Shown here piece by piece: positions 9,920 through 47,795 of a stretch of DNA of 64,000 nt. The first letter of the stretch is position 1; each line of letters begins with the position of its first letter. The translations under genes were made by a program, and so were the position numbers. This stretch comes from a virus (Duplodnaviria; Caudoviricetes): positions 869 through 64,868 of the IMG/VR virus record IMGVR_UViG_3300002220_000406. One strand, written 5' to 3'. The notes beneath the pieces are model-generated. The model had not been told where the DNA came from, made no database searches, and worked only from the letters and a program-made list of their open reading frames with translations.

Positions 9920-9958
9920 TATTAGGCGAAAAACCAACAATAAAAGCGATACCCTGAA

Positions 9959-10160
9959 AAAATGAGCCTCTTCCTTTCAAAAACAGGCATTGGTAGGGGT
10001 ACTACGGGGGCACCGCAAAATGAGCCTCTCCGTTTGAAAATCGGCATTGGGTGGGGGTACTGGGGTGTAGCGGAAAATGAGCCTCTCCTTTCAGAATTTG
10101 GGGTTGGTACTGGTACTACGGGGTACCAGAAAATGAGCCTCTTCTTTTCAAAAATGGGCA
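9959..10160. repeat. degenerate tandem repeat, 4 copies, period 56-58 bp
   Basis: AAAATGAGCCTCT at 9959, 10017, 10074 and 10130, each followed by related TTT(C/G)A(A/G)AA..GGCA(TTGG)...GGTACT..GGG sequence; non-coding gap. Confidence 0.9.
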
Positions 10161-10389
10161 TACCACCCACCCACCACCACCCACCCGAGCCTCCGATCTG
10201 GTCTCCGAGAGCCTCCGAGCCGTCTCGATCTGACCCGAGCCCAGAGCCTCGAGGCTCGTATCTCCGAGACGCACTGCCAGTCCTCGAGCCAGATCTGCGA
10301 GGGCTCGAGCTCGTATCTCCGAGGGCAACGCTGCAATCCCTCGAGCGTCCTATCTCCGAGACGGAAGGATAGCCGGCTAACCTATCGGC

Positions 10390-10422
10390 AAAGAGAAAGG
10401 GCTGAGGACGAATCCCCAGCCC
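10390..10422 (-). terminator. rho-independent terminator ending the leftward early operon
   Basis: Minus strand GGGCTGGGGA-TTCG-TCCTCAGCCC followed by TTTCTCTTT; UUCG tetraloop. Confidence 0.8.
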
Positions 10423-10446
10423 ACAGCCCTCGAGGTTGAGAGCGAT

Positions 10447-10650
10447 CTATGCGCGCTCCCAGTACTTGCGGATGCGGTCACCCCAGATAATTGTGGGGCA
10501 CATAGTGTCCAGCCGTGAGTAGCACGCCCGAACGATTGGGACGTGAATCTTACAGACCCAGTCCACCAACCGCTCCGATCTGAGAGCCGAGACGAGCCAG
10601 AGAAGGTGGAGCGTGCCGATGTACGCCCCGAGCAGTATGTGCTTTGTCAC
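10447..10650 (-). CDS. hypothetical protein with hydrophobic N-terminus (67 aa)
   Basis: GTG start with GGAGG RBS; last gene before the terminator. Confidence 0.6.
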   Translation of the reverse strand: MTKHILLGAYIGTLHLLWLVSALRSERLVDWVCKIHVPIVRACYSRLDTMCPTIIWGDRIRKYWERA

Positions 10651-11075
10651 TCTGCCACCTCCGAGAACTCCTCATACGGAAAGCTATCGTCACCCTCGAG
10701 CACGATCTCCGAGGGCTCACCGACCACGGAGAGGCACGAGGGAGCCTCGAGCCTCGCCCACTGATAGATCGCCCCCTCGATGGTCTCGCAGTCCGTCACG
10801 TCGACCTCAACAAAGAACCGACACGGCACAGTGAAAACGACCCTCATAACACCCGAGGGTGGAGCCTCGAGCCTCGAGAAGGGCTCAGCCAATCCGAGCA
10901 GACTCTCGAGGGCGTTCCGGACTTCGGGAGCGAGCACACGCCACGCATCCTCGTCTGGGTATCCGTCTCTGTCTGCGGTGTAGTTGGCGAATTTCTCGCC
11001 AAGCTCCGAGAGCCACCAATTAGCCGTCATTCTCGCCTTTTCGGCTCTGTCCGAATCTAACGCTGCATTTATCAT
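10647..11075 (-). CDS. acidic early protein (142 aa); C-terminal part weakly resembles the small beta-beta-alpha family
   Basis: GGAGG RBS; RVVFTVPCRFFVEVDVTDCETIEGAI pattern. Confidence 0.65.
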   Translation of the reverse strand: MINAALDSDRAEKARMTANWWLSELGEKFANYTADRDGYPDEDAWRVLAPEVRNALESLLGLAEPFSRLEAPPSGVMRVVFTVPCRFFVEVDVTDCETIEGAIYQWARLEAPSCLSVVGEPSEIVLEGDDSFPYEEFSEVAE

Positions 11076-11368
11076 TTTTCACCTCCGAATTTAACCACAC
11101 GCTGAAGAAACGCCACCGAGGGCACATAGTACCACTGGGGCTCGCCACACTCGCATTCGCAATCCCACCCAGCCATCCAATGACCGCAAGGTGGACGCTT
11201 GACCAGATCCCACCCGAGCCTCCGCTTCGAGCGGTTGCCCCGACCCAGTTCTGCGACCCGAGCCAGTGGTCTATCATCACTCAGCACCTCCGCAGACTTA
11301 GCCACGGCAACCTCTGCCGAGAGTCCGCACTTCATCAGCGCACAGGCAAACTTACGAAATCTGCTCAT
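11072..11368 (-). CDS. early hypothetical protein (98 aa, Cys-rich C-terminus)
   Basis: GGAGG RBS; CGH...CECECG motif. Confidence 0.6.
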   Translation of the reverse strand: MSRFRKFACALMKCGLSAEVAVAKSAEVLSDDRPLARVAELGRGNRSKRRLGWDLVKRPPCGHWMAGWDCECECGEPQWYYVPSVAFLQRVVKFGGEK

Positions 11369-11558
11369 CCTTCACCTCCCAAGCCTCTCCGACTTCATAC
11401 TCATTGAAAACCTTGACCGAGCACCTATCCACCAACTCGTACAAGTGCCCATCCTCGTCAGCCTGTTCCACCAGCTTCTGGGCATCCTCGGCTGAGTCCG
11501 CTTCGACCTCGAGCTTGTGTGACTCGTACAGATCGAGCTCAACTAGAAACTTTGGCAT
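11352..11558 (-). CDS. small acidic beta-beta-alpha protein (DpnD/PcfM-like family member)
   Basis: MPKFLVELDLYESHKLEVEADSAEDAQKLV matches the repeated family motif; GGAGG RBS. Confidence 0.7.
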   Translation of the reverse strand: MPKFLVELDLYESHKLEVEADSAEDAQKLVEQADEDGHLYELVDRCSVKVFNEYEVGEAWEVKDEQIS

Positions 11559-11688
11559 CTTTCACCTCCTTGCGAAGTCTCTGGACTTCACGCACACGCT
11601 CCACCTGTTTGCGCTTATAGCCGACAGGGTCGAGCTTAGCCTCCCGAGCCTCTCGCACGAGTTGCTCGAACAAATCCTTGCTATTCAT
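11539..11688 (-). CDS. first gene of the leftward early operon (49 aa, helical)
   Basis: AGGAGG RBS, ATG at 11688, downstream of a TTGACA promoter. Confidence 0.65.
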   Translation of the reverse strand: MNSKDLFEQLVREAREAKLDPVGYKRKQVERVREVQRLRKEVKDAKVSS

Positions 11689-11725
11689 AGTTCCTCCTAA
11701 ATGCCCGAAAGAGTCGGACAAGGTG

Positions 11726-11754
11726 ACAGTATCAACCAAGGGCTGTTATGTCAA
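11726..11754 (-). promoter_or_regulatory. leftward early sigma70 promoter
   Basis: TTGACA, 17 bp, TACTGT with extended TG; shares ATTGACATAACA with the rightward promoter at 12850. Confidence 0.75.
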
Positions 11755-12239
11755 TCTCCGAGAACGACCCGAGCAAGGCTCTCCGCTTCAACTCGGGGGA
11801 GGGGGTTCTCTCGAGGGAGATCTGCGTGGAAGTGTTGAAACAGATTCACAAGTAAGTTCCGGATACCATCACGCAAAGCAGCCTCGGAAGATATGGAGGT
11901 CGGCTGAGCCGTCTCGAGGCGGTGTGTGTTCTGTAGAACGCTCAAGAGGTTAGGCAGAACTCCGTCCTTGATGTCCCGAGCTTTTAGCTTTTCGTTAATG
12001 ATCTCCGAAACGAGGTATCGGTTTTCTTCGTTGATTGTGGCGAAGTCTCGCACCTTCCTGTCTGCTAGGAGCAGTATCTCGGGCGTGACTGTTTCGGGCG
12101 TAAGTCTGGTTACTGTGTCACGGCTTACCCCGTGCCTAGTGGCTATATGTTCTTGTGTGGATATTTGCAGATATTTCTCCGCCAGAATCTCCGCCTTGGC
12201 TTGGTCGCTGAGGTTATGGTCTCCCTTATTGCGTCCCAT
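11751..12239 (-). CDS. putative terminase small subunit (N-terminal HTH)
   Basis: HTH-like TQEHIATRHGVSRDTVTRL, helical middle, RLETAQPTSI motif; size and late-type context fit TerS. Confidence 0.55.
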   Translation of the reverse strand: MGRNKGDHNLSDQAKAEILAEKYLQISTQEHIATRHGVSRDTVTRLTPETVTPEILLLADRKVRDFATINEENRYLVSEIINEKLKARDIKDGVLPNLLSVLQNTHRLETAQPTSISSEAALRDGIRNLLVNLFQHFHADLPRENPLPRVEAESLARVVLGD

Positions 12240-12515
12240 TTAGAAGTTTATGACCCCGAACTTTTTCGGCTTTGTGTGAGTCTTTACGAGCTGGTCTATT
12301 AGTGCGAGGAGTCGAAGGTTTACCACTTCGTAATCGGTGGCTTTTTGGGTTGCCTTGCCCAGTTCGACCTTTAGCTCGACTATTACCTCGTCACGAGCTT
12401 TTAAAGCCCCCTCGAGGGCTTCAATGAGCGTGTCTCGGGCATCGGGCTGGCTTGTCTGGGCATTGACCAGTACAGGGGCGAATAGAAGCAATGCGGTTAA
12501 GGTCAAGGTTTTCAT
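12240..12515 (-). CDS. exported coiled-coil protein, spanin-like (outer component candidate)
   Basis: Signal peptide MKTLTLTALLLFAPVLVNA|Q, coiled coil, overlapped with an upstream TM/coiled-coil gene. No lipobox Cys seen. Confidence 0.45.
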   Translation of the reverse strand: MKTLTLTALLLFAPVLVNAQTSQPDARDTLIEALEGALKARDEVIVELKVELGKATQKATDYEVVNLRLLALIDQLVKTHTKPKKFGVINF

Positions 12516-12802
12516 TTTTTCAAGGCTCTCCGAGCTTCGATGACTTTCTGGTCAGCGGTCTTGAGTCTGGTGTCGATCGCTTCGAGCTTTGCCTCGAGGC
12601 GTGCTTCAGACTGGCTGACCTTGGCATCGACCAAAGCCTCGACTGCGGAGAGGTCGAGAGGCGGTGGTGGCGGTGCCGGCTTCGAGCATTTAGCCGAAAA
12701 GAAGACCACAACAAGGACAGCCAGACACAGAACGAGCAGAGCGTTCTGTCGGATGAGGTTAAGAGCGTCGATGCCTATTCGGGCGAGAAGTGCGGTGAAC
12801 AT
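12512..12802 (-). CDS. membrane-anchored coiled-coil protein, spanin-like (inner component candidate)
   Basis: TM segment ALLVLCLAVLVVVFFS, poly-Pro linker, coiled coil. Confidence 0.5.
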   Translation of the reverse strand: MFTALLARIGIDALNLIRQNALLVLCLAVLVVVFFSAKCSKPAPPPPPLDLSAVEALVDAKVSQSEARLEAKLEAIDTRLKTADQKVIEARRALKK

Positions 12803-12807
12803 AAGGC

Positions 12808-12816
12808 ATTATAGCA
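12808..12816 (-). promoter_or_regulatory. extended -10 promoter, leaderless transcript of the spanin-like/terS unit
   Basis: Minus strand TGcTATAAT, 5 nt, ATG (12802); no RBS. Confidence 0.65.
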
Positions 12817-12850
12817 TATTTGCGCTTTTCTTAGAAGTGCTGACTGGGTA

Positions 12851-12880
12851 TTGACATAACAACAAAGAGCCGTTTAAGAT
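12851..12880 (+). promoter_or_regulatory. rightward early sigma70 promoter
   Basis: TTGACA, 18 bp, TAAGAT; GGAGG RBS and ATG at 12900. Confidence 0.75.
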
Positions 12881-12899
12881 GCCTTCGGAGGTTAGACAA

Positions 12900-13268
12900 A
12901 TGACAAATACAAAATTCGATATCACGGCTCAGCGTGGCTGGGTCGATCACCTACCCAGCTCAGCCAAGGGGCATAGCTTCGACCAAGCCCTTCTGGCGAT
13001 AGACTCGGAGGGCACTTCGGTTGGGCGTTTTTGGTGGCGTTGGACTCGAGGGGGCACTTGCCAGTGCATCGTTCAAATAAACGGCATTGGTCGAGGCTAT
13101 GGGAAGGCTGGGGGCTATGGCTACGACAAGAAAGCACAGGCTCTCGACAATGCCCTCGCAAGCGTGGGGATCAAGTGGAAGTCTGCCCACGACATCACGC
13201 CAGATTACGACCTTCAAACGATGTTCGAGGAACTGGACAACAAAGAGGTACAGGTCTACTGGGTCTAG
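12900..13268 (+). CDS. conserved phage early protein (GxGxAGGYGYDK motif)
   Basis: GRGYGKAGGYGYDKKAQALDNAL motif; first gene after the promoter. Confidence 0.75.
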   Translation: MTNTKFDITAQRGWVDHLPSSAKGHSFDQALLAIDSEGTSVGRFWWRWTRGGTCQCIVQINGIGRGYGKAGGYGYDKKAQALDNALASVGIKWKSAHDITPDYDLQTMFEELDNKEVQVYWV

Positions 13269-13297
13269 GGGCATCAGCCCCTACCCTTGGAGGAACA

Positions 13298-13783
13298 ATG
13301 AGAATAGAGAAAAATAAAATGATAACTTTTGAGTCGCTATACCGCCAGTTTGCTGGCGAGTCGGTCTATCTGGGCGAGGTGATGCACGAGCTAGTCTTTG
13401 AGAAGGGCTCGGAGGCGTATCACCCCAGCATCACTTGGACATTCACGCCACCCAACGAAGAAGAGGAGGAGGTGGTCATTGCCCTTGCCATCGAGGGAGA
13501 ACGAGTGACGGATTATTTCGGGGTCTCATCGCTTCCGGCACTGGCGTTAACCTTTTTGAGGGCTCTGGGCTATGACTGCTCAGAGATCGAGGAGAGGGAG
13601 GGGGATATCCCCTCCCCAATCACCTGTGCCGATTGTGGCTCGGGCGATGTCGTGCCACTGGCTGATGCGGTGTGGAACGGCAAGGAAGGACGCTGGAGCG
13701 TTGCGTGGGTCAACACTGAGGGATATTGCAAAGTCTGCGACAAAGACGGAGTGCAGCTAAGGAGGGCTTATGAGGCTATATGA
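13298..13783 (+). CDS. acidic early protein with C-terminal zinc ribbon (family B)
   Basis: GGAGG RBS; CADCGSGDV..LADAVWN....WSV...GYCKVCD. Confidence 0.75.
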   Translation: MRIEKNKMITFESLYRQFAGESVYLGEVMHELVFEKGSEAYHPSITWTFTPPNEEEEEVVIALAIEGERVTDYFGVSSLPALALTFLRALGYDCSEIEEREGDIPSPITCADCGSGDVVPLADAVWNGKEGRWSVAWVNTEGYCKVCDKDGVQLRRAYEAI

Positions 13784-14231
13784 TTTTGTGAAAGAAGACA
13801 GGACTGGGCTTGAGGGGATGCTCAAGACCTTTGCCCGAGCGGAGTGGGACGCTCGGGTGCGGAATGGTGAGACGCTGGACACTCTGGCGTTTTTAACTGA
13901 CCTTGCGGAGGCATTGGACGAGGAATTTTGTTCCGAGCTTGAGGCGGTGATGGTGGGGCTATCTGCCTACACCCACCTCTTCAACCGCTTCATCGAGCAC
14001 TACCTCGACCACGAGCTTTTTTTTGTGCTTGCGGTCGATCTCTGGAAGGCTTGCGGACATAAAGTGCCGGCAATCTGTGCCAAGTGTCACACAGGTGACC
14101 AGCTCGAGCTTTCGGGCGATGTTCGGGTGGTGAACGGCAAGGTCGAGATTATCAAGCTCGACATCCAGTTCTGCAACAACTGTGCGGAGCATACAACAGT
14201 TTTGGGGGTGGATTGTGAGCAGAGAAGATAG
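13770..14231 (+). CDS. acidic early protein with C-terminal zinc ribbon (family B)
   Basis: CAKCHTGDQL......FCNNC. Confidence 0.75.
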   Translation: MRLYDFVKEDRTGLEGMLKTFARAEWDARVRNGETLDTLAFLTDLAEALDEEFCSELEAVMVGLSAYTHLFNRFIEHYLDHELFFVLAVDLWKACGHKVPAICAKCHTGDQLELSGDVRVVNGKVEIIKLDIQFCNNCAEHTTVLGVDCEQRR

Positions 14232-14376
14232 GGAACGACTCGAGGATGCGGTGGAGTTGATTCTCGACAGGGACGGCACAGTGTTGCCGTCTCTGGTCGA
14301 GGATGCAATCCAATGGATTAGGCAAAACGGACTGGTCGAGGAAGCCAGAGCCGAAATTACAAGGAGACAGAAATGA
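14215..14376 (+). CDS. small helical early protein (53 aa)
   Basis: GTG at 14215, overlapped with neighbours. Confidence 0.55.
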   Translation: MSREDRERLEDAVELILDRDGTVLPSLVEDAIQWIRQNGLVEEARAEITRRQK

Positions 14377-14615
14377 AGACTAAAGTGATCTGCACCGATT
14401 GCAAGGGCGAGGATGTGCTTTTAGACACATTGGCGGTATGGAATGTGGAAAAGCAAGACTGGGTCGTGTTCGATGTGGCAGAGCCTAGAGCCTTTTGTAG
14501 GGACTGCGACACGGATGTTGAATGGGATATGGTGGACATCGAGAGCGGTGTCCCCCATCTCGAGAAAGTCATCAGTGATTTTGAGGAGGGAAACAATGGA
14601 CAAGAAACAAATTGA
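14373..14615 (+). CDS. standalone zinc ribbon (family B)
   Basis: CTDCKGEDVLLDTLAVWNVEKQDWVV...AFCRDCD. Confidence 0.75.
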   Translation: MKTKVICTDCKGEDVLLDTLAVWNVEKQDWVVFDVAEPRAFCRDCDTDVEWDMVDIESGVPHLEKVISDFEEGNNGQETN

Positions 14616-14775
14616 ACAGGTCAAGCGAGCGGTCTCCAGTGCGATCTATGCACTCTGGGACGCTTCGATGGTTCCGGAGGGTCATCCGGTAGGCAACAAG
14701 ATAGAATCGGCTCATTCGAGGCTGATAGAGGCAAGGCTGATGCTTAAAAAGCTGGAGGAGGCAAACAATGAATAA
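14596..14775 (+). CDS. small helical early protein (59 aa)
   Basis: GAGGAGG RBS, ATG at 14596. Confidence 0.65.
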   Translation: MDKKQIEQVKRAVSSAIYALWDASMVPEGHPVGNKIESAHSRLIEARLMLKKLEEANNE

Positions 14776-15262: not shown

Positions 15263-15597
15263 ACACTGCCACGGACACAGTGATGTTATGGCTGAGAGCG
15301 ACTGGGGAGGAATCCCCAGTTCGCTCCATCGTCAGAGCGTTCTACGATGAGATGAACCAGAACGGATGCGATTACTTCAACGATGGCACGCTGGAGGAGT
15401 TCACGGACAAATACCGCTCAGCGGTTCGAGAAAGGGTCTGGGACGCTTTTCTGGCTCTGGGTCACGACTACGCTGAGCCGGTGACCTATTTGTCCGTCTT
15501 GACAACAAGGGCTGTTTTGTTGCAGTGTGACTGGGCAGTCATCATCCGGCAAGTGGTCGGTGATGAGGGTCTAGTCTTTTTGGAGGTGGGAGAATGA
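15259..15597 (+). CDS. early hypothetical protein (112 aa)
   Basis: GGAGG RBS, ATG at 15259. Confidence 0.7.
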   Translation: MNTATDTVMLWLRATGEESPVRSIVRAFYDEMNQNGCDYFNDGTLEEFTDKYRSAVRERVWDAFLALGHDYAEPVTYLSVLTTRAVLLQCDWAVIIRQVVGDEGLVFLEVGE

Positions 15598-15695: not shown

Positions 15696-15697
15696 AA

Positions 15698-16958: not shown

Positions 16959-16959
16959 G

Positions 16960-17142: not shown

Positions 17143-17143
17143 A

Positions 17144-17332: not shown

Positions 17333-17340
17333 GAGGAAAA

Positions 17341-22673: not shown

Positions 22674-22684
22674 TTGTCCTCCTT

Positions 22685-25163: not shown

Positions 25164-25214
25164 ATCCTCCTCCAGTCTGACGGTGGTTTGCCACACTTCA
25201 TATATTAAATCAAT

Positions 25215-41500: not shown

Positions 41501-44500
41501 CGGTGACACCCTCCATTGCGCCTGCAAGACCTTTATCTGCCACAGCCGCTTTTGCTTTTTTCGCGATTTCTTGTTTTCTGGCAGACTCTTTTTTGCCTTC
41601 AGCCTCTGCCGCTTTCTGTGCGGGCTTTGTCTTAGCTTCATTCCACGCCTTTTCGAGCAGACTTTCGGGGAAGTATCCGAACTCATTGATATAATCTCCA
41701 GCAAAAATGACATCTCGGGCCTCTACCTCAAACGAGTAGACCTGACTGCCTTCTTCCTGAGAGTTAATCTCAGCGTAGGTCTTTGAGAACGTCACCCAAT
41801 CGCCTATATTGAGCTGCTTGGACGGACCTGCCCTGTAAATCGTAACCTTGGCTCTGGGATTATCCCTGATAGCCTGCAGCACTGCCCAGCTCTCCTGTTC
41901 CGCTTGATCTTTCTTCAGGTTCGATGCAATTGATAGCTCAGGCTTTTCGTAAACATCGTCAGGGATAGCTCCGCCTTCAAGAAGGTCGTGCGCAGGAGGC
42001 ATCCCTTCGTAGGTGGGCCTGTGAGACATCCCGTATTCGGGAGCCTCCCCAAACACTGCCGCGCGAAACTCCTCATAAGTCTCAAATTCTTTAGCCTTCT
42101 CAACCAGATCACTCTGCGTGTCTTGGACTTTAGTGCCCTGAGCCACCACCACTTCTCCAACTTGGATCACCTCGCCGTTTTTTGTAATGGTAGGTTTCTT
42201 GACCTTTTTAATTATAAATTGGCCTTCAAACAGATTGGCATCCCGCACGAACTCCGGCGCCACTTCCATGCCTTCAACCCAAGGCATACCTATGGCATGA
42301 GTCTGCACACGCTCGTAGCCCATCTGCTTGAGCGACTCTTCAAGAGCGTCAAGCGCCTTACGCATCTCTGTTCCGAATGCGATCCAGGCTGACTGACTCA
42401 TCTCGGCTTTAGGAGCTAACCCTGCGGCCAGCAAACCTTCTAGCTTTGAGATCGCGTCAAGAGCCCGTATGGGGCGATCCGTTTCGATTAGGATATTGAC
42501 CTGCGTCCTGATTTGCTTCCCGTGGTTGTTTGACGGAATACCTTTAGCAGCCTTGTCAAGCATTACAACGCCGTCGTCATAATCCTGCTGACCCTCTTCG
42601 GCCTGTTCCTCTCCGGTAAGGATCTCTACCTCTTCGTCTGGGGTGATCTCTTGTTCAGTCTGAACGTCAGTGGATTGAGTTTCTGACTGCTCCGTGTCGC
42701 CGGTTGTTTCTGGCGCAGGAGCCGTCTCCGATATACGGGCAGCTTCAATCGCCTCGGTTGTTATTTGTCCTACTTCTTTTACGACATACCCAGACTCCGT
42801 TTGTTCTATGACAGGTGGCTTAGTAATAAGGATCGTGCCATCGGTGATCGCTGCGCTGACCTGGGCAGGCTGTGCGGCTACGCTGAACAGGCGCGGAAGA
42901 ATGGCCTCCGGAGAATGCTTGATCTTATTGCCAACGATTTTCTGTTCAAACATGGGCACCGCGGTAAAGGTGCCGTCAGGTCTGCGGACGAGCCTGAATA
43001 AAGACTCGCCCTCTTTCATCTCTGATTCTAAAAACGCTATCGTGCCGTCGGCATTGACCCCGGGGAAATACCCCACAGTCTCGCCTTCTGTGCCCTGGTT
43101 GGCAGGAGCTTGAGTGGTCGTCTCGACCTGTTGTTCCGTAGGAGCCTGGTCAGCACCTTTCAGTCCAAAGTTTGTGCCTTCCTTTTCGTGCCGAGTCGCG
43201 ACCAAGTCGAGAAGGTCCGTGAAAGGTAGACCCGCCATCGAATCGCGGCCTTTAGAGTCCTTGCCAGTCATCCGCCGCCTCACACCCATCGCGATGTAGT
43301 CCTTGCCGTCAAGCGAGATGGCAGAAAAGAGCGGGGAGCTCCCCCCTAGGGCGCTTAGGACTTGCTCGGCTGTCCAACCATTACCCTGGCCGGTTTCGAT
43401 CAGCTGATCTATCAGGAGGCCAAATTCACGCAACAGATTGATTACGTCGTCAGGGGTCAGTCCTTCAGCACTCTCCCACCCGTAAGCGCGTAGCGCGTCA
43501 TTTCTAAGCGCATTGACGAATTTGGTGCCTGCGATCGGCAGCAGCATCGCGGTGATTTCGGCGTCGGCAAGCAGATTGAATAGTTTTCTCCTGGCATTTT
43601 CCAGCGTTCCCGCAAATGCAGGGTCATTGCTATGCTGCCGGGCAAATTCGAGGTACTCGGCAATGAGGTCTTCGACCTCCTCAACGGTAACCCTCCCCGA
43701 TTTCTTTCGTTCCACTGCCTCGTCAATTCGGGCAATAATGTCAGCGCCTTGCTGCTCCTCGCCGGTCAAGATGTCGACTTCTTCGTCTTGCGCTGAGTCT
43801 GTTTGTTCCGAAGGTACATATGCCGTGGTAACCGCGGATCTAGGCACAACGGATTCGGTATTGCTACCGTCGTCCGTAACAACGCGAACATTTTCGCCTT
43901 GGTCCTCCACAATAAGCGCTGGGCCTATGCCATCAACGGTAACTGGCGTGCCAGGCTCGTAAAAAGCTCCATCCACCAAGGGGCCTGGGGCGTTTTGAGC
44001 ACTGTTTGCGCCGTCGTTCATGCCGTCTTGAATGGCAGCGGCTCGCTCTTCTGAGGCAAAAGAATCTGAGACCCTGCCCCAGTCCGCATCCTCAAGGTAA
44101 AGGGCGTTCTGGCCATTGATGACAGTGCCTGAGTCTTCGGCGACGGTGTAGTAAGGTTTGCCGTCCTGGTCTTCACCAACGCCTGTTACGGTCAATTGCG
44201 AGCCGTCAGCCGTGCTGGTTACAACCTGACCCACCGCAGTGCCCTTTAGAAGATCCCAAGCCCTCTTTCTGGCTTTCTTGTTTGGCGCGTTGAGAAAACT
44301 GTCCTGGGCTATTCCTGCGGGTGGACGGTCGTATTTGTCCACCAATGCCTTTTGAGCCTCTAATGCGTTCAGCTCAGCGCTCAAAGCATCGAATGCCTGT
44401 TCCTGGCCATCGGCCGGGGTTCTGGTTTCTTTTCCGTTGCGGTCCTGCGTTACATTCGAGATAAGATCGAGTTCGCCCCTGACCTGCTCCAATCGCTCAT

Positions 44501-47500
44501 TTAAAAGGGTAATGCCTTCGCCGGTGTATTCAGCGTCCCTCTCTGCTCGCGCCCTTTCAAGCGTGAGCGAGGGTTGAACCGATTCGACTGCGTTGGGGGT
44601 AAAGACTCGAACATTGCCCTTTCCGTCCACGTCGGCTCGGATCTTAACAATGATATTGCCGTCCTTGGTAAATCCTTGAACCACTCCCAAGCCTTTGGGC
44701 GTGGCTACATAACCACCCTCTTTGATTTCAAAATCTTCTTCCGTGAGCGCTCCGACAGAGGCCTCTCCAGCCTCCATCTTGACCTTGGCCGCCCTGTTGG
44801 CAGAGGTCTGATCTGCAAATGTAAGAGCGGCATTGGCCTGGTCAAACAGTGCCGCAGCCTCGCTGATCAATCCTTCCCTTTCAGACGCAGGCGCGCTGTT
44901 GACCTTGCGCATGATGCCCATGGCCTTGGAAAACTTGTTCCAAATATTTTCGTTGCCCCATCGCTTTGCGGCTTTAAAATGCTCGATGTCTTCCTCGCTG
45001 AGCTCGATAGGCTTGCCATCCTCTCCAAGAACTTGAGGCGTGATGTCTGTCCGGGCAATCCTCTGGAACTCTCTCTGAAGATTGGCTACGTGCGTGCGGC
45101 TTCCATACACATCTCCGCCCACACCCACACCGACTCCCAAACCTCCGCCCAGCAATCCGCCCGCCATGGCGTGTGGAAGCGCGTCAACAGCTTCGTTGGG
45201 CACGTTTGCAAAGGCAAACATGAGCGCTGACCAGCCCTCTCGAAGTTTTCCGGTTTCCGGATCGACCTCGGTCAAGGCCTTCATAGCCCCGCCTTGCAGA
45301 GCGCTCTGGAACGTTTCCTGCGCAGTCTCTTCTAAAAACTCTTTTCCAAAATAATACGGACTGGCCTTTGCGACCTTCGCCAACATACTCTGGCTACCGT
45401 TACGGATCGCGTCGCGAGCCAGTGTTTTAATAGTGCCCTGAGAGACCTCGCCCAGAGCCAACTTTGTTATGGTCTTAGGTATAATGCGGCCAATACCAAA
45501 CATTTCGGTTGCGCCAAGAGGCACGGAAAGGCCGGTAGCCCAATTCAATGCTGACTGGTGGTTGTAACCCGCACCTCGCAATGAGGTGTAAACGCCGGGC
45601 AGCATCATGCTGGCGCCGGTGGCCCATGACGTGCCCATTGCAACCTTCGTTGCGGTCTTTGCTGCAAGGCCTCCAGCCCTTGCGGCAAGCGTCGCGCCGA
45701 CTTGAGGCCCCATAAACGAAATCAGGTTGCCCGCTATAGCTGCGTAAGTAAATTCGTCGGAGTATCCGTGGTATCGTTTATAGTAATCACCGCTGCGGAT
45801 CCAATCGCCCGCAGTCTCGCCCTGCTCATCGGTGAGCCAATACGAGGCGGTCAAGTACTTGCCCTTGTCCGTATCGCCTACATAATTAATGGCTCTTCCT
45901 AGCGCGGAGTTAATGGATGCCAGATCTGTCAGCATCAGGGCACCCGTGCCAATGTCGGTTATTGATGCCCCGATTTCAGTACCGGTTACTGCTAAAAATC
46001 TGCCGACCTTGCCAAAGACACTTGCATCGTCCCATTCCTTCTGAGCCTCAGCCTGTTTTGCTCTAAACTTTTCGATAGAGCCAAACTGCTGGATCTTTCC
46101 GCCGACGTAGGCATCAAAGGCGGCGTTCTCGCCATTGAGCAGCTGTTCGTCTGTCCATTTGTCGGGATTGGTCTCGATCGGATTCCACGTCTGCTTGATC
46201 TTGTCGGTCCAGTGAGTGTTGTCGTCTCTCCAGGGCTGTATAGCCTGCTGAATCGACTGTCGCGTCAAGCCGTTGGCATAGATCTGAGTAAGTTTTTCGT
46301 TGCGCTCTTTTGCGTCGATAAACTTTGATTGTTCCCGGGCAATGACCTCTGCGGCTTGGTCTTGGACCGCCTTATCCATACTCCTAAACGGAGCAAGGGC
46401 CTCCATTGGATTAGCGCTGAAACCCCGTCGTTTTACTGGGTTGCCGTTTTCGTTGGTGGTAATCCATCCTGGTGCTGCGCCAGGCACATCGCCACCAGTC
46501 TTGAGCTGATTCAGATACAGGCCTTTTTGGGTGTTGATCCTGTCGAGATTGATCTGCCTTGTCTGCGCAAGAGCTTTGGCGTTGGGACCGTTCAGCCATT
46601 CCGCTATCGAGCTTTGACTGAGACCAATGTCCCCAAGCTCGTTGTCGTCCAGTTTGGTAAGGTCTGCCCCGTCGGCGTAAAGCTTTTCCAGCACCGGCTC
46701 GAAGCGGATGCTTTTGGCAGTTTTGGCCGCTTTAAACCGCGCCAGGCCTTTAGGGTCAATGGTGATGGTGCCGTCCGGCTTAAGGCCTGTGCCCAACATG
46801 AGATTCAGCTGAAAGTCTGAGGCGTTGACACCCTGCGCATTTAGCTCTTTCCTCATACGCGCGATCATCTTCTTGTGATCTGCGTCGGTGAGTTTGTCGC
46901 CCTGGTTGAACGATTTTTTGCCTATAGCCTCAAGTAAATTAAAGCTAATTGGCTTTAAACTGCCCTCATAAAGCTCCGGTCTTTCTGCCTGTTGAGCCCT
47001 AAACTCAACTTCCGGCAAGAGCGAGTTGTCGTTCTTAAGGACAAACTTTTGATTGTTGAAGGAGTAAATGCCTTTCGTGCCTTGAGGCCCGTCAGATATC
47101 CTGTTGTAGGCGTTGCCCTTTTTGTCCTTGATTTGATTTGGATTGCGAAACTCTTTTTCGTTGACATAGCCTTCGCCCTGCTTTAGGTAGAACTGATTAT
47201 CAGAGCCCTTGTATCTGTTCTTGCCTACAGACTTCAGCCGGACACCGTTGTTGAGAGGAATCTCGTTTGGGTCTGAGGTGCCGGGAGGCGAAACACTTTT
47301 TGACGCGCTGGCGGTCGTGCCTGACAGTATCTCGCTAATCGACAGAGTGGGGGTCTGCGGCTTTTTGCCTATAATGCCTTCGGTGCCTGGTGGGACCTGA
47401 GGCGCGCGTGTGGGAATGCTTTCTTTGCCCAATGAACGGCCTAAAAGGTCTGTGCGTTCAAGGCGGTTTGGGTCGTAATCGACACGTAAGGATGAAAAAG

Positions 47501-47795
47501 GCGAGGGCGGTGGCTGAGACAGAGTCCGCTGTCCAGTCTGGGGAGGTGGCAAAGGAGCTGGGCTGGTAGCCGGCAATGTAGGTCCTCGGAACGTCGGTTG
47601 TGGCCTGGCAGGTCCTGTAGGCACGTCACCGTTTAAATAAGCACTAGCCTCAGAGTCGGGGCCCGTAAAGTCGTCAGAGGGCACGATAAGGCCCAAGGAC
47701 TCCATCTCTGCCCTTCGGCGTCTGCGCAGCTCAAGTTCTTCCTCCTCTGTGTTCAGAGGTATGCCCAAGATGTTCGACAGTATCGGATCGTACAT
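29505..47795 (-). CDS. giant (6,096 aa) polyvalent internal virion / ejection protein
   Basis: Uninterrupted 18.3-kb ORF, last in the ejection-protein position. Domains by motif: GrpE-like, ART-like, GNAT, ParB/DdrB-like, L,D-transpeptidase, Ogg-like HhH, HExxH. Confidence 0.9.
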   Translation of the reverse strand: MYDPILSNILGIPLNTEEEELELRRRRRAEMESLGLIVPSDDFTGPDSEASAYLNGDVPTGPARPQPTFRGPTLPATSPAPLPPPQTGQRTLSQPPPSPFSSLRVDYDPNRLERTDLLGRSLGKESIPTRAPQVPPGTEGIIGKKPQTPTLSISEILSGTTASASKSVSPPGTSDPNEIPLNNGVRLKSVGKNRYKGSDNQFYLKQGEGYVNEKEFRNPNQIKDKKGNAYNRISDGPQGTKGIYSFNNQKFVLKNDNSLLPEVEFRAQQAERPELYEGSLKPISFNLLEAIGKKSFNQGDKLTDADHKKMIARMRKELNAQGVNASDFQLNLMLGTGLKPDGTITIDPKGLARFKAAKTAKSIRFEPVLEKLYADGADLTKLDDNELGDIGLSQSSIAEWLNGPNAKALAQTRQINLDRINTQKGLYLNQLKTGGDVPGAAPGWITTNENGNPVKRRGFSANPMEALAPFRSMDKAVQDQAAEVIAREQSKFIDAKERNEKLTQIYANGLTRQSIQQAIQPWRDDNTHWTDKIKQTWNPIETNPDKWTDEQLLNGENAAFDAYVGGKIQQFGSIEKFRAKQAEAQKEWDDASVFGKVGRFLAVTGTEIGASITDIGTGALMLTDLASINSALGRAINYVGDTDKGKYLTASYWLTDEQGETAGDWIRSGDYYKRYHGYSDEFTYAAIAGNLISFMGPQVGATLAARAGGLAAKTATKVAMGTSWATGASMMLPGVYTSLRGAGYNHQSALNWATGLSVPLGATEMFGIGRIIPKTITKLALGEVSQGTIKTLARDAIRNGSQSMLAKVAKASPYYFGKEFLEETAQETFQSALQGGAMKALTEVDPETGKLREGWSALMFAFANVPNEAVDALPHAMAGGLLGGGLGVGVGVGGDVYGSRTHVANLQREFQRIARTDITPQVLGEDGKPIELSEEDIEHFKAAKRWGNENIWNKFSKAMGIMRKVNSAPASEREGLISEAAALFDQANAALTFADQTSANRAAKVKMEAGEASVGALTEEDFEIKEGGYVATPKGLGVVQGFTKDGNIIVKIRADVDGKGNVRVFTPNAVESVQPSLTLERARAERDAEYTGEGITLLNERLEQVRGELDLISNVTQDRNGKETRTPADGQEQAFDALSAELNALEAQKALVDKYDRPPAGIAQDSFLNAPNKKARKRAWDLLKGTAVGQVVTSTADGSQLTVTGVGEDQDGKPYYTVAEDSGTVINGQNALYLEDADWGRVSDSFASEERAAAIQDGMNDGANSAQNAPGPLVDGAFYEPGTPVTVDGIGPALIVEDQGENVRVVTDDGSNTESVVPRSAVTTAYVPSEQTDSAQDEEVDILTGEEQQGADIIARIDEAVERKKSGRVTVEEVEDLIAEYLEFARQHSNDPAFAGTLENARRKLFNLLADAEITAMLLPIAGTKFVNALRNDALRAYGWESAEGLTPDDVINLLREFGLLIDQLIETGQGNGWTAEQVLSALGGSSPLFSAISLDGKDYIAMGVRRRMTGKDSKGRDSMAGLPFTDLLDLVATRHEKEGTNFGLKGADQAPTEQQVETTTQAPANQGTEGETVGYFPGVNADGTIAFLESEMKEGESLFRLVRRPDGTFTAVPMFEQKIVGNKIKHSPEAILPRLFSVAAQPAQVSAAITDGTILITKPPVIEQTESGYVVKEVGQITTEAIEAARISETAPAPETTGDTEQSETQSTDVQTEQEITPDEEVEILTGEEQAEEGQQDYDDGVVMLDKAAKGIPSNNHGKQIRTQVNILIETDRPIRALDAISKLEGLLAAGLAPKAEMSQSAWIAFGTEMRKALDALEESLKQMGYERVQTHAIGMPWVEGMEVAPEFVRDANLFEGQFIIKKVKKPTITKNGEVIQVGEVVVAQGTKVQDTQSDLVEKAKEFETYEEFRAAVFGEAPEYGMSHRPTYEGMPPAHDLLEGGAIPDDVYEKPELSIASNLKKDQAEQESWAVLQAIRDNPRAKVTIYRAGPSKQLNIGDWVTFSKTYAEINSQEEGSQVYSFEVEARDVIFAGDYINEFGYFPESLLEKAWNEAKTKPAQKAAEAEGKKESARKQEIAKKAKAAVADKGLAGAMEGVTDLEVAEALLEAWSKSPAFDAINKYLSYVNWDGNSFVQESVHWDNGLDFYGDKIEEKHGKKARAEWDALFADREKAMPLILELRREKRDKEISGEKLFPVDLTSDERALILRVGQASRYLEARGLAPDDALTADEIRAILNFLPKRDAEYGQWGSKGQLFDPIKEIYREAIGEDVGQGEAVEEDIDEEVDEEVAEQVDEELDEDEDIDEDDDGDAGAQPVFPPTSRTRKYPKTKAAPTKGAPKVGRIVTPKEGPGAGVEWAIVDTYKEKEVDRTVWVVRDPEGNVAVITPDRGWTVTDRQVDGPLPSAPRSTPYKSIAEAEEAMPIGSMTIIRGYSNAAFGMQMVVGYTMGKNGVVEAIVMTRGWPHTPTRINQGPAHKLVPHFDPTEDASQRNVKTREALVREHPVGSTMAVVMPDGTIKEGKVVAHSPLTQRDFFIAAVDGKGEHFGALVQGTQGGLTRMPVFKSRKELEAAIEKAKADLEQHKEKLEAMAPVGSTYGGELVTGYTTEFKVEAEGQWSSSVQIELFDPASGFSREMVMRKGGMFGQGSATEKIEQGVFETSDENQSLWKLVEKGAKLYVGTSANSVTGTKSVTVSGTVEKVFRDKRTGRVAVKLGDVKLPKEVDSWSKRELGQKVGVVDLAATSKTAKDAGAKRKEFEADVETRKVAARKAAEIGSVELSETERGVMRESFQDWETGVEALLDGTPLVREEADSLIENIEDYLNDEEIQEFLSDLDVSALNRILAKLRALTGQEVESAEAEQAPEKSRFESRFDKTVDGSPFLQDIAKDNAVTPHSSSAVAIKIGEAFIYMTPGEDGVMIIDDFRVSPEAVGKGQGSAALKKLTEYADKHGITLIGDPVAQSDSGRKNKKQFGLSQDELLAFYERNGFGPITMQIESAHERLGATADWIQREPGGSPVGRKQEPQAASKGKPIIPELSRGSELILDEYAEDYMEEQGIVPGESITPEQARYLAQVLDDNNTGDLPNVTRDAEGLRDAADESEGKQTPRQKAAPKTETVTETPTNKTQTVYAGDIKVPVEQKVISADDIITSEQEGYPSELQPRDTSRKSSAAFVTSIAADLDTDKLGDETFAGNGRPIVVPVKVNGQTKYAVIAGNHRVGAIRQRYNQDTNEEYEGFAQEKGEAAGQDTEGINSPIYVGVISDPGAIDLVEFARQANAPQQRAMSTAEQAIEDAKKLTPAILSKLVVSENGDLGTTANEAFIRDFLLAVGEERASAYRTASGQMSQDGFRAMRAAIFAAAYADTQEGADLLERVFESEDSNIKRITSAMLLNAAAFAQLKADVANGNRFEGLDISADLTAMAVKYADLRAEGMPVSEFLQQGNLFGGDLTPIQVMILEMLESKRNSAKALSAILQNYLRTVDEMGSPKQMNMFSDAENRGAASILQGAIEFNEENGNDKQQGLFGKEFGPQDNQENQGTAPAEDGGTAESEYPTSPISQEEFAKIRRGLKRAEVLEWWAKVSEATGIRLSEDNKTLLAPEGMVFARSGKPTAKNAAVGSDLNFIGFALENVLVRGLSELAPAEGQQPDTQQEVNDGIVEDALDTLEESEIETLEEVYGEERGSQGFMAKVREDLTRFAQKGAKGVKVKLRKIIAKLATAVLATAMILHAVLPSVAVTKQLPTAATQTATQITTTYAKVSEQFKELKPSLETALVVDWAMTTNAHENKPAAFVDKKNGIMYILSATGELLSARPVITGLSKDYDRIDETRYKDIKAYEDFDPKIDRATQAGKFDLIPEDRPNNETWLYFSMQGPAFAAGIHRNWSSAAAERSRALETATPEDNFGTYGCISTSDEDYANVIAPIFVEGKKRAQKSGTIFVIPGSSALEEFFPEAASGEYTPTPISSYVIYGQEPVLPQDASAREDMTADRRSLPISRQTGRRMKDATKYEFKAPDARNLQDQGELLPGGFKAPSVPVGQERGAGEEDRPLGATSIAPKTIKGPALLPGLTQEAPEDSDIREGRKGAALSKNAILPNVPKNLDLIDEALDVNSDPEKSEDAWARYWAYLTKNRTVPIAPYNLIAQLRKKLPFGNLLTKLSDGQIKDANAGLEAAKRFRRLYTSGVATPTTTAKLALWGLLSRGVSPYVQESMFLFVADKIAPWIEQAEQGKFDFEKYEAWVKGLNFEEGLPANGTKHNLNSFGEHFLVKMSEEAEPGKSGIRVLHDWIADKKLTGPQIRRLFHSTFQGVGFDNKVLSFMLLVTGRTDVLVLDRVQIRNLFDDGRFKGQNLYDGDKHTTVYLKSEEKDGPKTPLGKLYQEEGESDKDFKAAVEALKADKAAELGVDIERIGESRDTTTGSSIEPITSGLWGLATYEAIERAIERKLQAIYDGLGRGDVASLGRLHWETWVVESGQEAGHGTLEGLYKEAAGKKAPYEGVTAKEGQYDTYSYGAEFGMTPDGQPFLRYTDSKNGKFVFTPKEFTTFLSEIQKRKNGIVPAGFKVSENTRRAWYENKQVNRKSLDDLIAKIGRPESDGVIGKNAERSAADGKVARRKSDRPLGATRQAEAEAKIAELRRKPLSTEVLKKATAKLTANGVELNLEATVFLESVAQKVFGRTAGFDGMFFQKGNTRKLLKAVRATEAGLRQKGRNDVADVVKNIGDVMESGLDRDTLLVYLFDDKVPHEALHKFRYLSAEGANIIERYDDFNALLGTERDGVNLVETAYKNFLMAIHQGRAWEDLTISEKAEVWEEAFVEASTGNFAALGLTLEQAQALYVADLEAFTAKNGEEVLNDIEEFIDARFKNVYQTGRDEGAVPETPAGPPGGVQETEEGGQERGEEGAPEPRRETPKYAERVLETGIITYDVEGMSETDRKGLALRKSTSIGDLISRVRWQTGDLAVVMAALYHEQRTLSARAQSYKSQGKTAEYEATIAALVELSQEIIAAQIQTGRAVNMAKVLSILPSQQALVVATRMKRRFTGNENAELTPFEAKQITDVTTKIEFLEKEVKKTQDRINRRSKGRTETGDKIPRKPRVTTTGKKPVKKTSLTIRQRLDRNLAQGFADSIQEVRDFLSNPSQDSPLGALANDAYVPPARRQAFGQVAAKLMQDGFDQDPDYDADKFAAQIAEMFGPSVEQFIDDIVNLGFETLAEAREQAVRENLIEQFADEADPETAADEEIQRRRDERQRRTAGRATLKKLASQATRRTGSSAAIDELNADATASDIAKVLAVAPDQDLANLAERVADEYGLPEVEAARKIIEAKRLLDVVKRNELIEKFKKEGDPAPEVSADIQMRTKKEQSKEKAKRNRELKRIVEEHDRKVEQLDEIAEKTDDIVVQYIANKLLEAMRPGGEAVTITTLLKDIDKQFGIGLEAARNKAREAKLVVDEIVQDRALAKAEAQGKNKEDLEKLKADKIALRREQTRLNQMLRSARKPTTLIGKFNAFLRGTFVFNWITQLFNFIQGFSMVGIQGFTDVVATAIRTIGGKYGMFADEVSPNVNLKTAWLAYGYLMANNRQVAEGIVAEFPEEWHRLELGIIADIPIEETESEGKKGLMAKAHKYADKLPKVTEFLAKISFAREQEIQMRTAIVMATLDQFARMKGTTLKEAVDEQRTAELFTEEEVREAVTRALRATFALPVDDKAGQWAKALYDQIDKYVPVFLNPVVYLRFTYTTTKIIANGFLAGALDLERLGGKGYKSTSLAQGVAAWSSVLLAAAMLAEFEGDDEEWYTLYVNGKDEAPIDVRRWYPMSVSFFIAHNIRLAIAGKPIMGLDEAIQAFASIEYDYYARSAGVEAVKAAYDAAFNRAEKPDADEALWKASAKMMGSVMGGMLRVLTPAKRLVSTFYEEEAKLRNYKDSAASEFIGEIAKSVPGLGVLYQAPPLIDPVTLKPVTEQKPYMRFFGFNYIHQMFTRPKPTTAEALAQQMFPANFTTPLKDQDKVEAARVRSEIKQALRRGDINEARAEVLVEYHVSKGTLSEQQGKRLKSDLKLTYLEEIIKYRVSLKDKDHVKKIKELMRKASPRERALIMEILANKELPD

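What the first reader, a model, noticed from the sequence alone, without database searches (positions are those of the whole stretch)
9950..47795. Candidate staged-entry anti-defence system: site-free leading DNA, a paralog arsenal and a co-injected 6,096-aa multi-enzyme protein
Seen in sequence: (i) a sharp 9-10 kb block almost lacking GGCC, CCWGG and GGWCC begins at a tandem-repeat/G4/CTCGAG cluster; (ii) it has strong host-type promoters and about 30 short genes, many from two expanded paralog families; (iii) the rest of the genome is full of those sites, yet no methyltransferase was recognised; (iv) the genome encodes a very large internal protein with several conflict-type enzyme domains. 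Established: T5 and T7 inject an early segment first, and polyvalent proteins are delivered with DNA to counter host defence. Inference: the virion end lies near 10 kb and this block enters first, surviving restriction. Its products, with the ejected giant protein, then neutralise restriction and other defences before the site-rich remainder enters.
Basis: partly seen in the sequence, partly recalled or inferred. Interest (0 to 1): 0.88.

Follow-up and report, generated by a model that had tools for sequence, protein, structure and literature searches.

The report
Restriction-site-free early block in a phage
In an uncultured 64.9-kb phage, the 9.5-kb block of small early genes has lost almost every copy of about 15 short restriction-type DNA motifs, the neighbouring replication genes have lost a subset, and the late genes none, which fits a phage that exposes its DNA to the host in stages as T5 and T7 do, though the DNA ends could not be mapped.

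Summary
In window 9.9-19.4 kb (30 small genes in two divergent operons), 15 short motifs occur at 0-0.5 per kb, against 1.3-5.2 per kb in the late genes. Nine are palindromes: GGCC, CATG, ACGT, CGCG, GCGC, CCWGG, CCSGG, GGWCC, CGWCG. Synonymous-codon shuffles never approach these counts. The replication block (19.4-27 kb) lacks a subset. The left edge (~10 kb) is sharp and the right edge recovers in steps.

Two relatives show the same purge in their small-gene blocks. The genome is complete (64,868 bp, circular in assemblies) and no DNA methyltransferase was found, although some relatives carry them.

The 6,096-aa ORF is intact in seven independent assemblies. It holds a ddrB-ParB domain, a weak GNAT match and an HhH-GPD DNA-glycosylase fold (Z 15.8).

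The staged-entry reading is plausible and matches the known T5 and T7-type logic. It is not shown. Termini could not be mapped, no early protein matches a known anti-restriction family, and nothing shows that the giant protein is ejected.

Verdict: a new variant of a known strategy, unusually clear and conserved across the lineage.

The parts
9959..10161 (.). Four degenerate 57-bp direct repeats (core AAAATGAGCCTCT on the + strand), non-coding, directly upstream of the late/terminase operon. Candidate terminase-binding or regulatory array. The left edge of the site-poor block.
   Evidence: The 12-mer occurs only here in the window (4 against 0.44 expected). It is conserved in the two closest relatives, whose contigs end inside it.
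10160..10185 (-). G-rich tract on the - strand (GGGTGGGTGGTGGTGGGTGGG) able to form a G-quadruplex.
   Evidence: Read directly from the sequence.
10187..10446 (.). Non-coding CTCGAG / TATCTCCGAG repeat cluster with the terminator of the leftward early operon (10399-10422, - strand).
10447..12802 (-). Leftward early operon of 8 small genes. The first gene (12512-12802) looks leaderless, lying 5 nt after TGCTATAAT. Strongly but not completely purged (10 sites of the nine palindromic motifs).
12803..12899 (.). Divergent promoter region. + strand: TTGACA-18-TAAGAT (12851-12880). - strand: extended -10 TGCTATAAT (12816-12808).
   Evidence: The - strand promoter was read by eye.
12900..19368 (+). 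Rightward early operon of 22 small, mostly acidic genes with strong GGAGG ribosome-binding sites. It holds most of the beta-beta-alpha family (weakly DpnD/PcfM-like), all four zinc-ribbon paralogs and a DUF1281_C protein. This is the cleanest part of the purge.
19354..19379 (.). Bidirectional terminator hairpin where block A and block B converge.
19365..27016 (-). Block B: 17 genes for replication, recombination and lysis (GH19 endolysin, PDDEXK-like, DnaB-like, HTH_36 initiator with a 22-bp iteron-like repeat, Sipho_Gp157). It lacks ACGT, CGCG, CCWGG, GGWCC and CGWCG but keeps GGCC, CATG and CCSGG.
27017..29542 (+). Divergent promoter region (TTGCAG-17-TATAGT) and five + strand genes (HTH_7 protein, DUF6378). 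Site density recovers here.
29505..47795 (-). 6,096-aa ORF, the last gene of the late operon. Candidate virion-delivered polyvalent protein.
   Evidence: Called as 6,096 aa in seven independent assemblies. One JGI contig has two extra bases that split it into 2,548 + 3,538 aa.
41664..42047 (-). Residues 1917-2044 of the giant protein: match to phrog_2579 ('ParB C-terminal domain').
   Evidence: E 1e-20.
38835..39089 (-). Residues 2903-2987: weak GNAT acetyltransferase match.
   Evidence: PF00583, 21.7 bits against a cut-off of 20.7.
38019..38396 (-). Residues 3134-3259: ddrB-like ParB domain, a hallmark of phage polyvalent proteins.
   Evidence: PF18763, E 9.7e-20. (phrog_5143, E 2e-50). PMC5512222.
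34371..35378 (-). Residues 4140-4475: HhH-GPD DNA-glycosylase fold with an inserted beta domain. Invariant Lys4311 and Asp4329 lie 18 residues apart, as in Ogg-type glycosylase/lyases.
   Evidence: pLDDT 89.7; Z 15.8 to 3n0u.
6578..9904 (-). Start of the late operon: a 65-aa gene (9707-9904, apparently leaderless after TGTTACAAT), 178-aa and 97-aa genes, and the large terminase (6578-8464). Site density is normal right up to about 9.87 kb.

Best explanation
The 9.5-kb early block is kept free of the recognition sites of many host restriction enzymes because it is the part of the phage DNA that meets those enzymes unprotected. The most likely reason is that the genome has a fixed leading end next to the repeat array at about 10.2 kb. 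Block A would enter or be exposed first and be transcribed by host RNA polymerase from the divergent promoters at 12.8 kb. Its roughly 30 small, mostly acidic proteins would disarm some of the host's nucleases before, or while, the replication block and then the site-rich late region become exposed. This is the logic shown for the T5 first-step-transfer region and for the leading region of T7-like phages. What is shown: the purge, its independence from codon use, its nested edges, its conservation in relatives, and the lack of any detectable methyltransferase. What is inferred: the position of the physical end, entry in stages, and the anti-restriction activity of the early proteins. The 6,096-aa late protein probably travels in the virion, and with its ParB-like and DNA-glycosylase domains it may act on DNA at entry. 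That is the weakest link.
For: The motifs lost are mostly short palindromes of the kind Type II enzymes recognise. The five most depleted tetramers are all palindromes. The loss covers both strands and non-coding DNA and survives synonymous-codon shuffling, so selection acts on the DNA. The profile is step-like: the tier-1 set (about 14 per kb elsewhere) is near zero from 10 to 19 kb, and the tier-2 set (12.6 per kb elsewhere) is near zero from 11 to 25 kb. The left edge is shared and sharp. The right edge recovers in two steps. Those profiles fit a linear order of exposure drawn on a circular map. Two relatives (GH19 63-64% identical) show the same purge of CGCG, GCGC, CCWGG, GGWCC, CGWCG and CGSCG in their own small-gene blocks, with intermediate density in their replication genes. 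The whole genome has no C5, N4/N6 or Dam-type methyltransferase, while relatives carry a C5 or N4/N6 enzyme. The repeat array lies directly upstream of the terminase operon, and the contigs of two relatives end in it. In T5 and BF23 the first-transferred region also has two divergent operons and a repeat-rich border, and only sites inside it make the phage restriction-sensitive (PMC10644984, 10.1101/866236). The same holds for Type I sites in Autographiviridae (PMC12455610). For the giant protein: late-operon position, a ddrB-ParB domain (PMC5512222), and homologues of its glycosylase module fused to tail lysozyme or ART-PolyVal domains.
Against: No termini were mapped. Every assembly of this phage passes through the 10-kb region and closes as a circle. 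That fits terminal repeats, but it also fits circular permutation by headful packaging, under which no fixed leading end exists. The relatives' contigs stop at different points of the array, so repeats, a G-rich tract or strain variation could explain those breaks. The leftward operon nearest the proposed end is less clean than the rightward one. Block B is transcribed towards block A, so transcription cannot pull it in from the 10-kb end. No early protein matched Ocr, ArdA or any other named anti-restriction family. The family matches are weak or of unknown function. There is no cluster of DnaA boxes like the T5 stop signal.
Confidence: 0.55

Rival explanations
1. All the DNA enters at once, and the site-rich late and middle regions are protected in cis by something delivered with the DNA. 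That could be the giant protein or another virion protein coating or altering the DNA, as P1 DarA/DarB do. The early block must stay bare so that host polymerase can transcribe it, so it alone relies on having no sites.
For: A giant late protein with ParB-like and DNA-glycosylase domains is encoded. P1 Dar proteins protect DNA in cis (PMC5512222). Circular assemblies fit headful packaging.
Against: With random headful ends, a protein would have to tell block A from the rest of the DNA. The two-tier gradient is not predicted. No DarB-type methylase-helicase pair was found.
Confidence: 0.15
2. The early and replication blocks are mobile modules exchanged among phages that meet many hosts. Their site poverty records the history of the donors, not the entry order of this phage.
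For: The early region is the variable part in this lineage. Gene order and orientation differ between relatives. Several assemblies break at the same point, about 28.5 kb.
Against: Losing sites in only part of a genome gives no protection unless the rest is shielded. Three relatives with different small genes keep the purge in the same map position, with a shared core of motifs. GC content is similar across blocks.
Confidence: 0.12
3. The block avoids the targets of the phage's own early nuclease or nucleases, which destroy host DNA. This idea has been proposed for T5 A1.
For: The idea exists for T5 (10.1101/866236). A PDDEXK-like gene sits in block B.
Against: Fifteen unrelated motifs would need many specificities. 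The site-rich late region of the phage would be cut as well.
Confidence: 0.06
4. The pattern is a by-product of composition, RNA-level constraints or repeated paralogs, not of restriction.
For: The block has a strong GC skew and unusual codon use.
Against: Shuffles that keep proteins and codon use give 7.5-28 sites per motif against 0-4 observed. The losses are specific to palindromes and span both strands and non-coding DNA.
Confidence: 0.03

Closest known systems
First-step-transfer (FST) region of phage T5 / BF23 (Tequintavirus)
   Same: A block of about 8-10 kb of small genes in two oppositely oriented operons with a repeat-rich non-coding border. Restriction sensitivity depends only on sites inside the block, and the rest of the genome is full of sites (PMC10644984, 10.1101/866236).
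   Different: No sequence homology and no A1, A2 or dmp matches. No DnaA-box cluster. A long terminal repeat and two-step transfer are not shown here. Far more motifs are purged, and there is a second, partial tier over the replication genes.
Leading (early-injected) region of T7-like phages (Autographiviridae)
   Same: On the circular map the early genes lie next to the terminase end. The promoters are of host type. Motifs in the leading region decide sensitivity to restriction (PMC12455610).
   Different: No T7-type RNA polymerase and no Ocr homologue were found (the control for one search was uninformative). The genes are not all co-directional, so transcription-pulled entry cannot explain block B.
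Polyvalent virion proteins (P1 DdrB/DarB type; Iyer et al. 2017, PMC5512222)
   Same: A large multi-domain protein in the late gene cluster with a ddrB-like ParB domain and a GNAT-like stretch.
   Different: 6,096 aa is about twice the usual upper size. It has no methylase-helicase pair. It carries an HhH-GPD glycosylase module, a word that does not occur in that paper. Packaging is untested.
Ogg2-type HhH-GPD DNA glycosylase/lyases (T. maritima Tm1821, M. jannaschii Ogg)
   Same: The fold matches (Z 15.8, rmsd 3.2 over 207 of 209 residues). A Lys and an Asp 18 residues apart are invariant in the aligned family.
   Different: Only 14% identity and no Pfam match. A beta-rich insertion of about 70 residues. 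It is embedded in giant phage proteins. Substrate and activity are unknown.
Leading regions of conjugative plasmids (anti-defence islands; recalled from the literature, not checked here)
   Same: The first-entering DNA carries many small anti-defence genes. DpnD/PcfM-like and DUF1281-type small proteins occur on such elements.
   Different: The DNA there enters as a single strand through a secretion system. No homology beyond weak domain matches.

Membership tests
Restriction-site avoidance (selection against R-M recognition sites) | The depleted words are mainly short palindromes, well below expectation | tested here: met
   The five lowest of 136 tetramers are palindromes at observed/expected 0.02-0.12. 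CCWGG, CCSGG, GGWCC and CGWCG are at 0-2.
Restriction-site avoidance (selection against R-M recognition sites) | The depletion is not explained by protein sequence or codon use | tested here: met
   300 synonymous shuffles, and recoding with late-gene codon use, give 7.5-39 sites per motif (5.6 for CCSGG when recoded) against 0-4 observed.
Restriction-site avoidance (selection against R-M recognition sites) | The host carries enzymes with these specificities | not testable with these tools
   The host is unknown. There are no tRNA genes and no terminase relative in the genome collection.
T5-type two-step (FST) DNA transfer | Block of small pre-early genes in divergent operons, with site avoidance confined to it | tested here: met
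T5-type two-step (FST) DNA transfer | Fixed leading end and long terminal repeat covering the block | not testable with these tools
Assemblies are circular.
T5-type two-step (FST) DNA transfer | Injection-stop region with a conserved DnaA-box cluster | tested here: not met
   Two TTWTNCACA matches in 64 kb, none at the block borders. A repeat-rich non-coding border does exist.
T5-type two-step (FST) DNA transfer | A1/A2/dmp homologues | tested here: inconclusive
   No named family matched among the 30 early proteins in Pfam or PHROGs.
T7-type transcription-coupled entry | Genes co-directional from the leading end; a phage RNA polymerase for later stages | tested here: not met
   Block A is divergent, and block B is transcribed towards A. 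There is no PF00940 match, but the control was uninformative.
Polyvalent proteins (Iyer et al. 2017) | Two or more conflict-type domains in one polypeptide | tested here: met
   ddrB-ParB at E 9.7e-20. HhH-GPD fold at Z 15.8. Weak GNAT match.
Polyvalent proteins (Iyer et al. 2017) | Encoded among late or virion genes | tested here: met
   It is the last gene of the late - strand cluster, directly after large unannotated late genes of 799-854 aa that are presumably structural. Those neighbours have no family match.
Polyvalent proteins (Iyer et al. 2017) | Packaged in the virion and delivered with the DNA | not testable with these tools
   This needs virion proteomics.
HhH-GPD DNA glycosylase superfamily | Two-lobed helical fold with a helix-hairpin-helix | tested here: met
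   Model pLDDT 89.7. The top 23 structural matches are all HhH-GPD-fold enzymes, 21 of them DNA glycosylases and two the related queuine-salvage enzyme DUF2419, at Z 5.4-15.8.
HhH-GPD DNA glycosylase superfamily | Conserved catalytic Asp after the hairpin, plus Lys for lyase-type members | tested here: met
   K242 and D260 of the model (residues 4311 and 4329) are invariant in 38 sequences. Their roles are inferred from their spacing.
DpnD/PcfM-like small proteins (PF14207) | Score above the Pfam gathering threshold | tested here: inconclusive
   Four of nine paralogs match below threshold, the best at 22.8 bits against 25.
N4-type virion RNA polymerase | Single-subunit polymerase domain in the giant virion protein | tested here: inconclusive
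   No Pfam, PHROG or PDB sequence match to a polymerase. Most of the protein remains unannotated.

The most novel reading that the evidence does not exclude
Nested tiers of motif loss record the order in which an uncultured phage exposes its genome: 15 motifs in the early block, about 10 in the replication block and none in the late genes. The pattern holds across the lineage, but with different motif sets in different relatives. If this is right, the leading end, the stages of DNA entry and the restriction repertoire of the unknown host could all be read from metagenome sequence alone. The same lineage would also deliver a 6,096-aa protein whose DNA-glycosylase module belongs to a large undescribed family of phage-borne enzymes that act on DNA at entry.
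Probability: 0.3. Interest if true: 0.8.

Novelty: new variant of a known kind. Interest (0 to 1): 0.62.

Why it matters
Studies of restriction-site avoidance usually treat a phage genome as one unit. Experiments on T5 (1979 onwards) and on T7-like phages (2025) show that only sites in the first-exposed DNA count. This genome shows that same logic as a very clean sequence signature in a phage group unrelated to either model. The signature has a second, partial tier, and relatives share it. That suggests a practical method: scan metagenomic phage genomes for step-like local motif loss to predict the leading end, the packaging type, the blocks rich in anti-defence genes, and the restriction specificities of unknown hosts. 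The 30 small early proteins are a pool of candidate inhibitors of Type II systems. The glycosylase module is found in about 630 sequence clusters of large proteins, a few of which also carry phage polyvalent or tail-lysozyme domains. It is a new candidate class of delivered enzyme.

Tried and rejected
- DNA and protein searches of cultured phages with block A, the late region and the terminase found nothing.
- A terminase search of IMG/VR gave one distant fragment. The same search of the genome collection gave none.
- Scanning viral and metagenome collections for the repeat-array motif returned 25 loci with no protein or DNA similarity to this phage, so they are chance arrays.
- Records of relatives could not be opened by handle.
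- PDB sequence searches with the giant protein and the terminase gave nothing useful.
- Pfam and PHROG scans of the large late proteins gave no usable matches, so head, portal and tail genes remain unnamed.
- The Atlas search of residues 1-1900 of the giant protein gave only weak leads (LPD14 and LPD22, scores below 0.8).
- I considered that the giant ORF is really two genes, because one JGI contig splits it. I rejected this because seven other assemblies give 6,096 aa.
- I considered that the contig is 71% complete and rejected it.
- I considered that the end of the 61-kb contig of relative L053 marks the same junction. Its tail has no alignable similarity to the window, so it is not used as evidence.
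- One literature search (DpnD/PcfM) returned only unrelated papers.

Full report
**What the DNA is.** The window is bases 869-64,868 of an IMG/VR record of 64,868 bp, labelled linear and 71% complete. That label is wrong. In an 83-kb JGI contig the two ends of the record abut, with one extra base between them. Three other assemblies give contigs of 64,898, 64,898 and 65,009 bp, which is the genome plus one k-mer overlap. The genome is therefore complete and assembles as a circle. The phage occurs in dozens of runs but has no relative among cultured phages.

**Gene map.**
- A late cluster on the - strand starts at 9,904 and contains the large terminase at 6578-8464. It runs through the record ends and finishes with the 6,096-aa ORF (47,795 to 29,505).
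- Block A (10.4-19.4 kb) has 8 genes on the - strand and 22 on the + strand. They diverge from 12.8 kb.
- Block B (19.4-27.0 kb, - strand) holds replication-type genes and a GH19 endolysin.

**The observation.**
- GGCC occurs twice between 9,873 and 20,310. CCWGG and GGWCC are absent far beyond that range.
- In block A the five most depleted of 136 tetramers are all palindromes (CGCG, CATG, GGCC, ACGT, GCGC), at 0.02-0.12 of expectation. The next word is at 0.36. None of these is depleted in the late region.
- CCWGG, CCSGG and GGWCC are at 0 and CGWCG at 2.
- Shuffling synonymous codons within block A, or recoding its proteins with late-gene codon use, gives 7.5-39 sites per motif (5.6 for CCSGG when recoded). 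Observed counts are 0-4, and no shuffle comes close.
- A pentamer scan adds ACSGT, CGSCG, GCAGG, CCCGC, TCAGG and ACAGC. In total, 15 motif classes sit at 0-0.5 per kb, against 1.3-5.2 per kb elsewhere.
- From 12,823 to 18,987 there is one site of the nine palindromic motifs, where about 165 are expected.

**A second tier.** Block B lacks ACGT, CGCG, CCWGG, GGWCC and CGWCG (0-3 observed against 12-21 in shuffles). It has normal GGCC, CATG and CCSGG. The per-kb profile has one shared, sharp edge at about 9.9-10.8 kb. The far edges are nested: one set of motifs returns at 19-21 kb and the other at 25-31 kb.

**The other sub-claims.**
- Genes and families: the 30 genes and both paralog families are confirmed. 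One is a beta-beta-alpha domain present 10 times in 9 proteins, weakly like DpnD/PcfM. The other is a zinc ribbon in 4 proteins. Nineteen of the 30 proteins have a pI below 5.
- Promoters: a good sigma-70-type pair sits at 12.8 kb (TTGACA-18-TAAGAT, and on the other strand TGCTATAAT five bases before an ATG). Similar sites lie at 27.1 kb and 9.93 kb. Promoter-like matches are not enriched over shuffles.
- Methyltransferases: none of four main families appears in a six-frame search of the complete genome.
- Border features: the repeat, G4 and CTCGAG cluster is as described.

**Relatives.** The terminase has hundreds of metagenomic relatives on contigs of 55-68 kb.
- Two relatives, reached through the GH19 gene (63-64% identity), have the order giant gene, replication genes, GH19, small-gene block. 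Their small-gene blocks are purged of CGCG, GCGC, CCWGG, GGWCC, CGWCG and CGSCG (0.3 per kb or less, against 0.4-3.4 per kb next door). Density is intermediate over their replication genes.
- Other motifs differ between relatives. CCGG is absent throughout both, and GGCC, GATC and ACGT are absent throughout one.
- Relatives with 73% and 56% terminase identity carry a C5 or an N4/N6 methyltransferase. The 73% relative, the only one profiled, shows a broader and weaker depletion.
- The local purge is therefore a maintained trait of the lineage.

**Where is the end?** It could not be measured. The indirect evidence is as follows.
- The profile has one sharp edge and one graded recovery.
- The four 57-bp repeats lie directly upstream of the terminase operon, as terminase-binding repeats do in lambda (my recollection, not checked here).
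- Those repeats are conserved in the two closest relatives (terminase 82-84% identical), and the contigs of both relatives end inside the array.
- Against this, those two contigs end at different repeat copies, and every assembly of this phage reads through the region.
- If packaging starts at the array and runs towards the terminase genes, block A is packaged last and leaves the head first. This is inference by analogy.

**The giant protein.** Seven independent assemblies call it as 6,096 aa. One JGI contig has two extra bases 30 nt apart that split it into 2,548 + 3,538 aa.
- Pfam finds a ddrB-like ParB domain (E 9.7e-20) and a marginal GNAT. PHROGs adds a ParB C-terminal-like stretch.
- A 1,200-residue query found 630 cluster representatives sharing a module of about 520 residues at 35-49% identity.
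- The module folds with pLDDT 89.7. It matches the T. maritima 8-oxoguanine glycosylase at Z 15.8, rmsd 3.2, over 207 of 209 residues. The next 22 matches all have the HhH-GPD fold, and 20 of them are DNA glycosylases.
- A Lys and an Asp 18 residues apart are invariant.
- Some homologues also carry tail-lysozyme or ART-PolyVal domains.
- The word glycosylase does not occur in the 2017 survey of polyvalent proteins.
- Most of the protein is still unannotated, and its packaging is not shown.

**Comparison with what is known.** In T5 and BF23, only restriction sites in the first-transferred region make the phage sensitive. That region also has two divergent operons and a repeat-rich border (PMC10644984, 10.1101/866236). 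In marine T7-like phages, Type I motifs matter only in the leading region, and the authors predict that packaging mode governs such avoidance (PMC12455610). The strategy is therefore known. What is new here is the phage group, the number of motifs purged, the second tier, the conservation across relatives, and the pairing with a giant protein that carries a glycosylase domain. Features specific to T5 (DnaA boxes, A1/A2) and to T7 (co-directional genes, a phage polymerase) were not found.

**Verdict.** I put restriction-driven local avoidance at about 0.9. I put a fixed leading end near 10 kb with staged exposure at about 0.55. I put an anti-defence role for the giant protein at about 0.3.

Noticed in passing
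window 10240-14900: CTCGAG is enriched where other palindromes are purged. Block A has 21 copies against about 2.4 expected, including 5 in non-coding DNA at 10248-10429. Eleven of 24 Leu-Glu pairs are coded CTCGAG, against 4 of 76 in late genes. The related CTCCGAG also repeats. This may be a protein-binding word.
   Followed up: partly
whole window: Some hexamers are avoided genome-wide: ATCGAT, TTCGAA, ACGCGT and ACTAGT have 0 copies, and GAATTC and CCTAGG have 1 each (about 14-17 expected per word over the whole window). The phage therefore uses global avoidance for some sites and local avoidance for others.
   Followed up: no
window 40150-40200 (L003:9919 and 9949): One JGI assembly has two extra single bases 30 nt apart, with no other difference in 23 kb. 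They split the giant ORF just before an internal ATG that has an upstream G-rich stretch. This is either an assembly error or a rare split variant.
   Followed up: partly
window 34371-35378 and proteins P0122-P0271: The HhH-GPD glycosylase-like module of the giant protein belongs to a family of about 630 cluster representatives, mostly inside proteins of 1,000-5,000 aa. It has no Pfam model.
   Followed up: partly
window about 28545: Contigs from four runs of one study (SRR16965598, -571, -577, -574) all end at the same point inside the 333-aa HTH_7 gene. This suggests a strain-variation breakpoint between the conserved late genes and variable early genes.
   Followed up: no
window 23072-23142: A 22-bp unit repeated 3.2 times inside the HTH_36 initiator-like gene looks like an iteron-type replication origin.
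   Followed up: no
window 12802 and 9904 (- strand): Two operon-leading genes start 5-6 nt after an extended -10 box (TGCTATAAT, TGTTACAAT) and have no ribosome-binding site. Their mRNAs are probably leaderless.
   Followed up: no
proteins P0082, P0086, P0087, P0090, P0095, P0099, P0100, P0107: Several terminase relatives are 750-1,000 aa long and carry intein or homing-endonuclease domains (PF14890, PF14528, PF07591). Inteins appear to be common in this terminase family.
   Followed up: no
G000 record as a whole: The CheckV estimate of 71% and the IMG/VR label 'linear' are misleading. The record is a complete genome cut inside a 298-aa gene. An 83-kb JGI contig carries it with an 18-kb wrap-around.
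   Followed up: yes
window 19643-20521 and 5598-6293: Two cell-wall enzymes are encoded. A GH19 'chitinase-like' endolysin lies at the end of the replication operon. An SLT transglycosylase lies on the opposite strand, between the terminase gene and the downstream late genes.
   Followed up: partly
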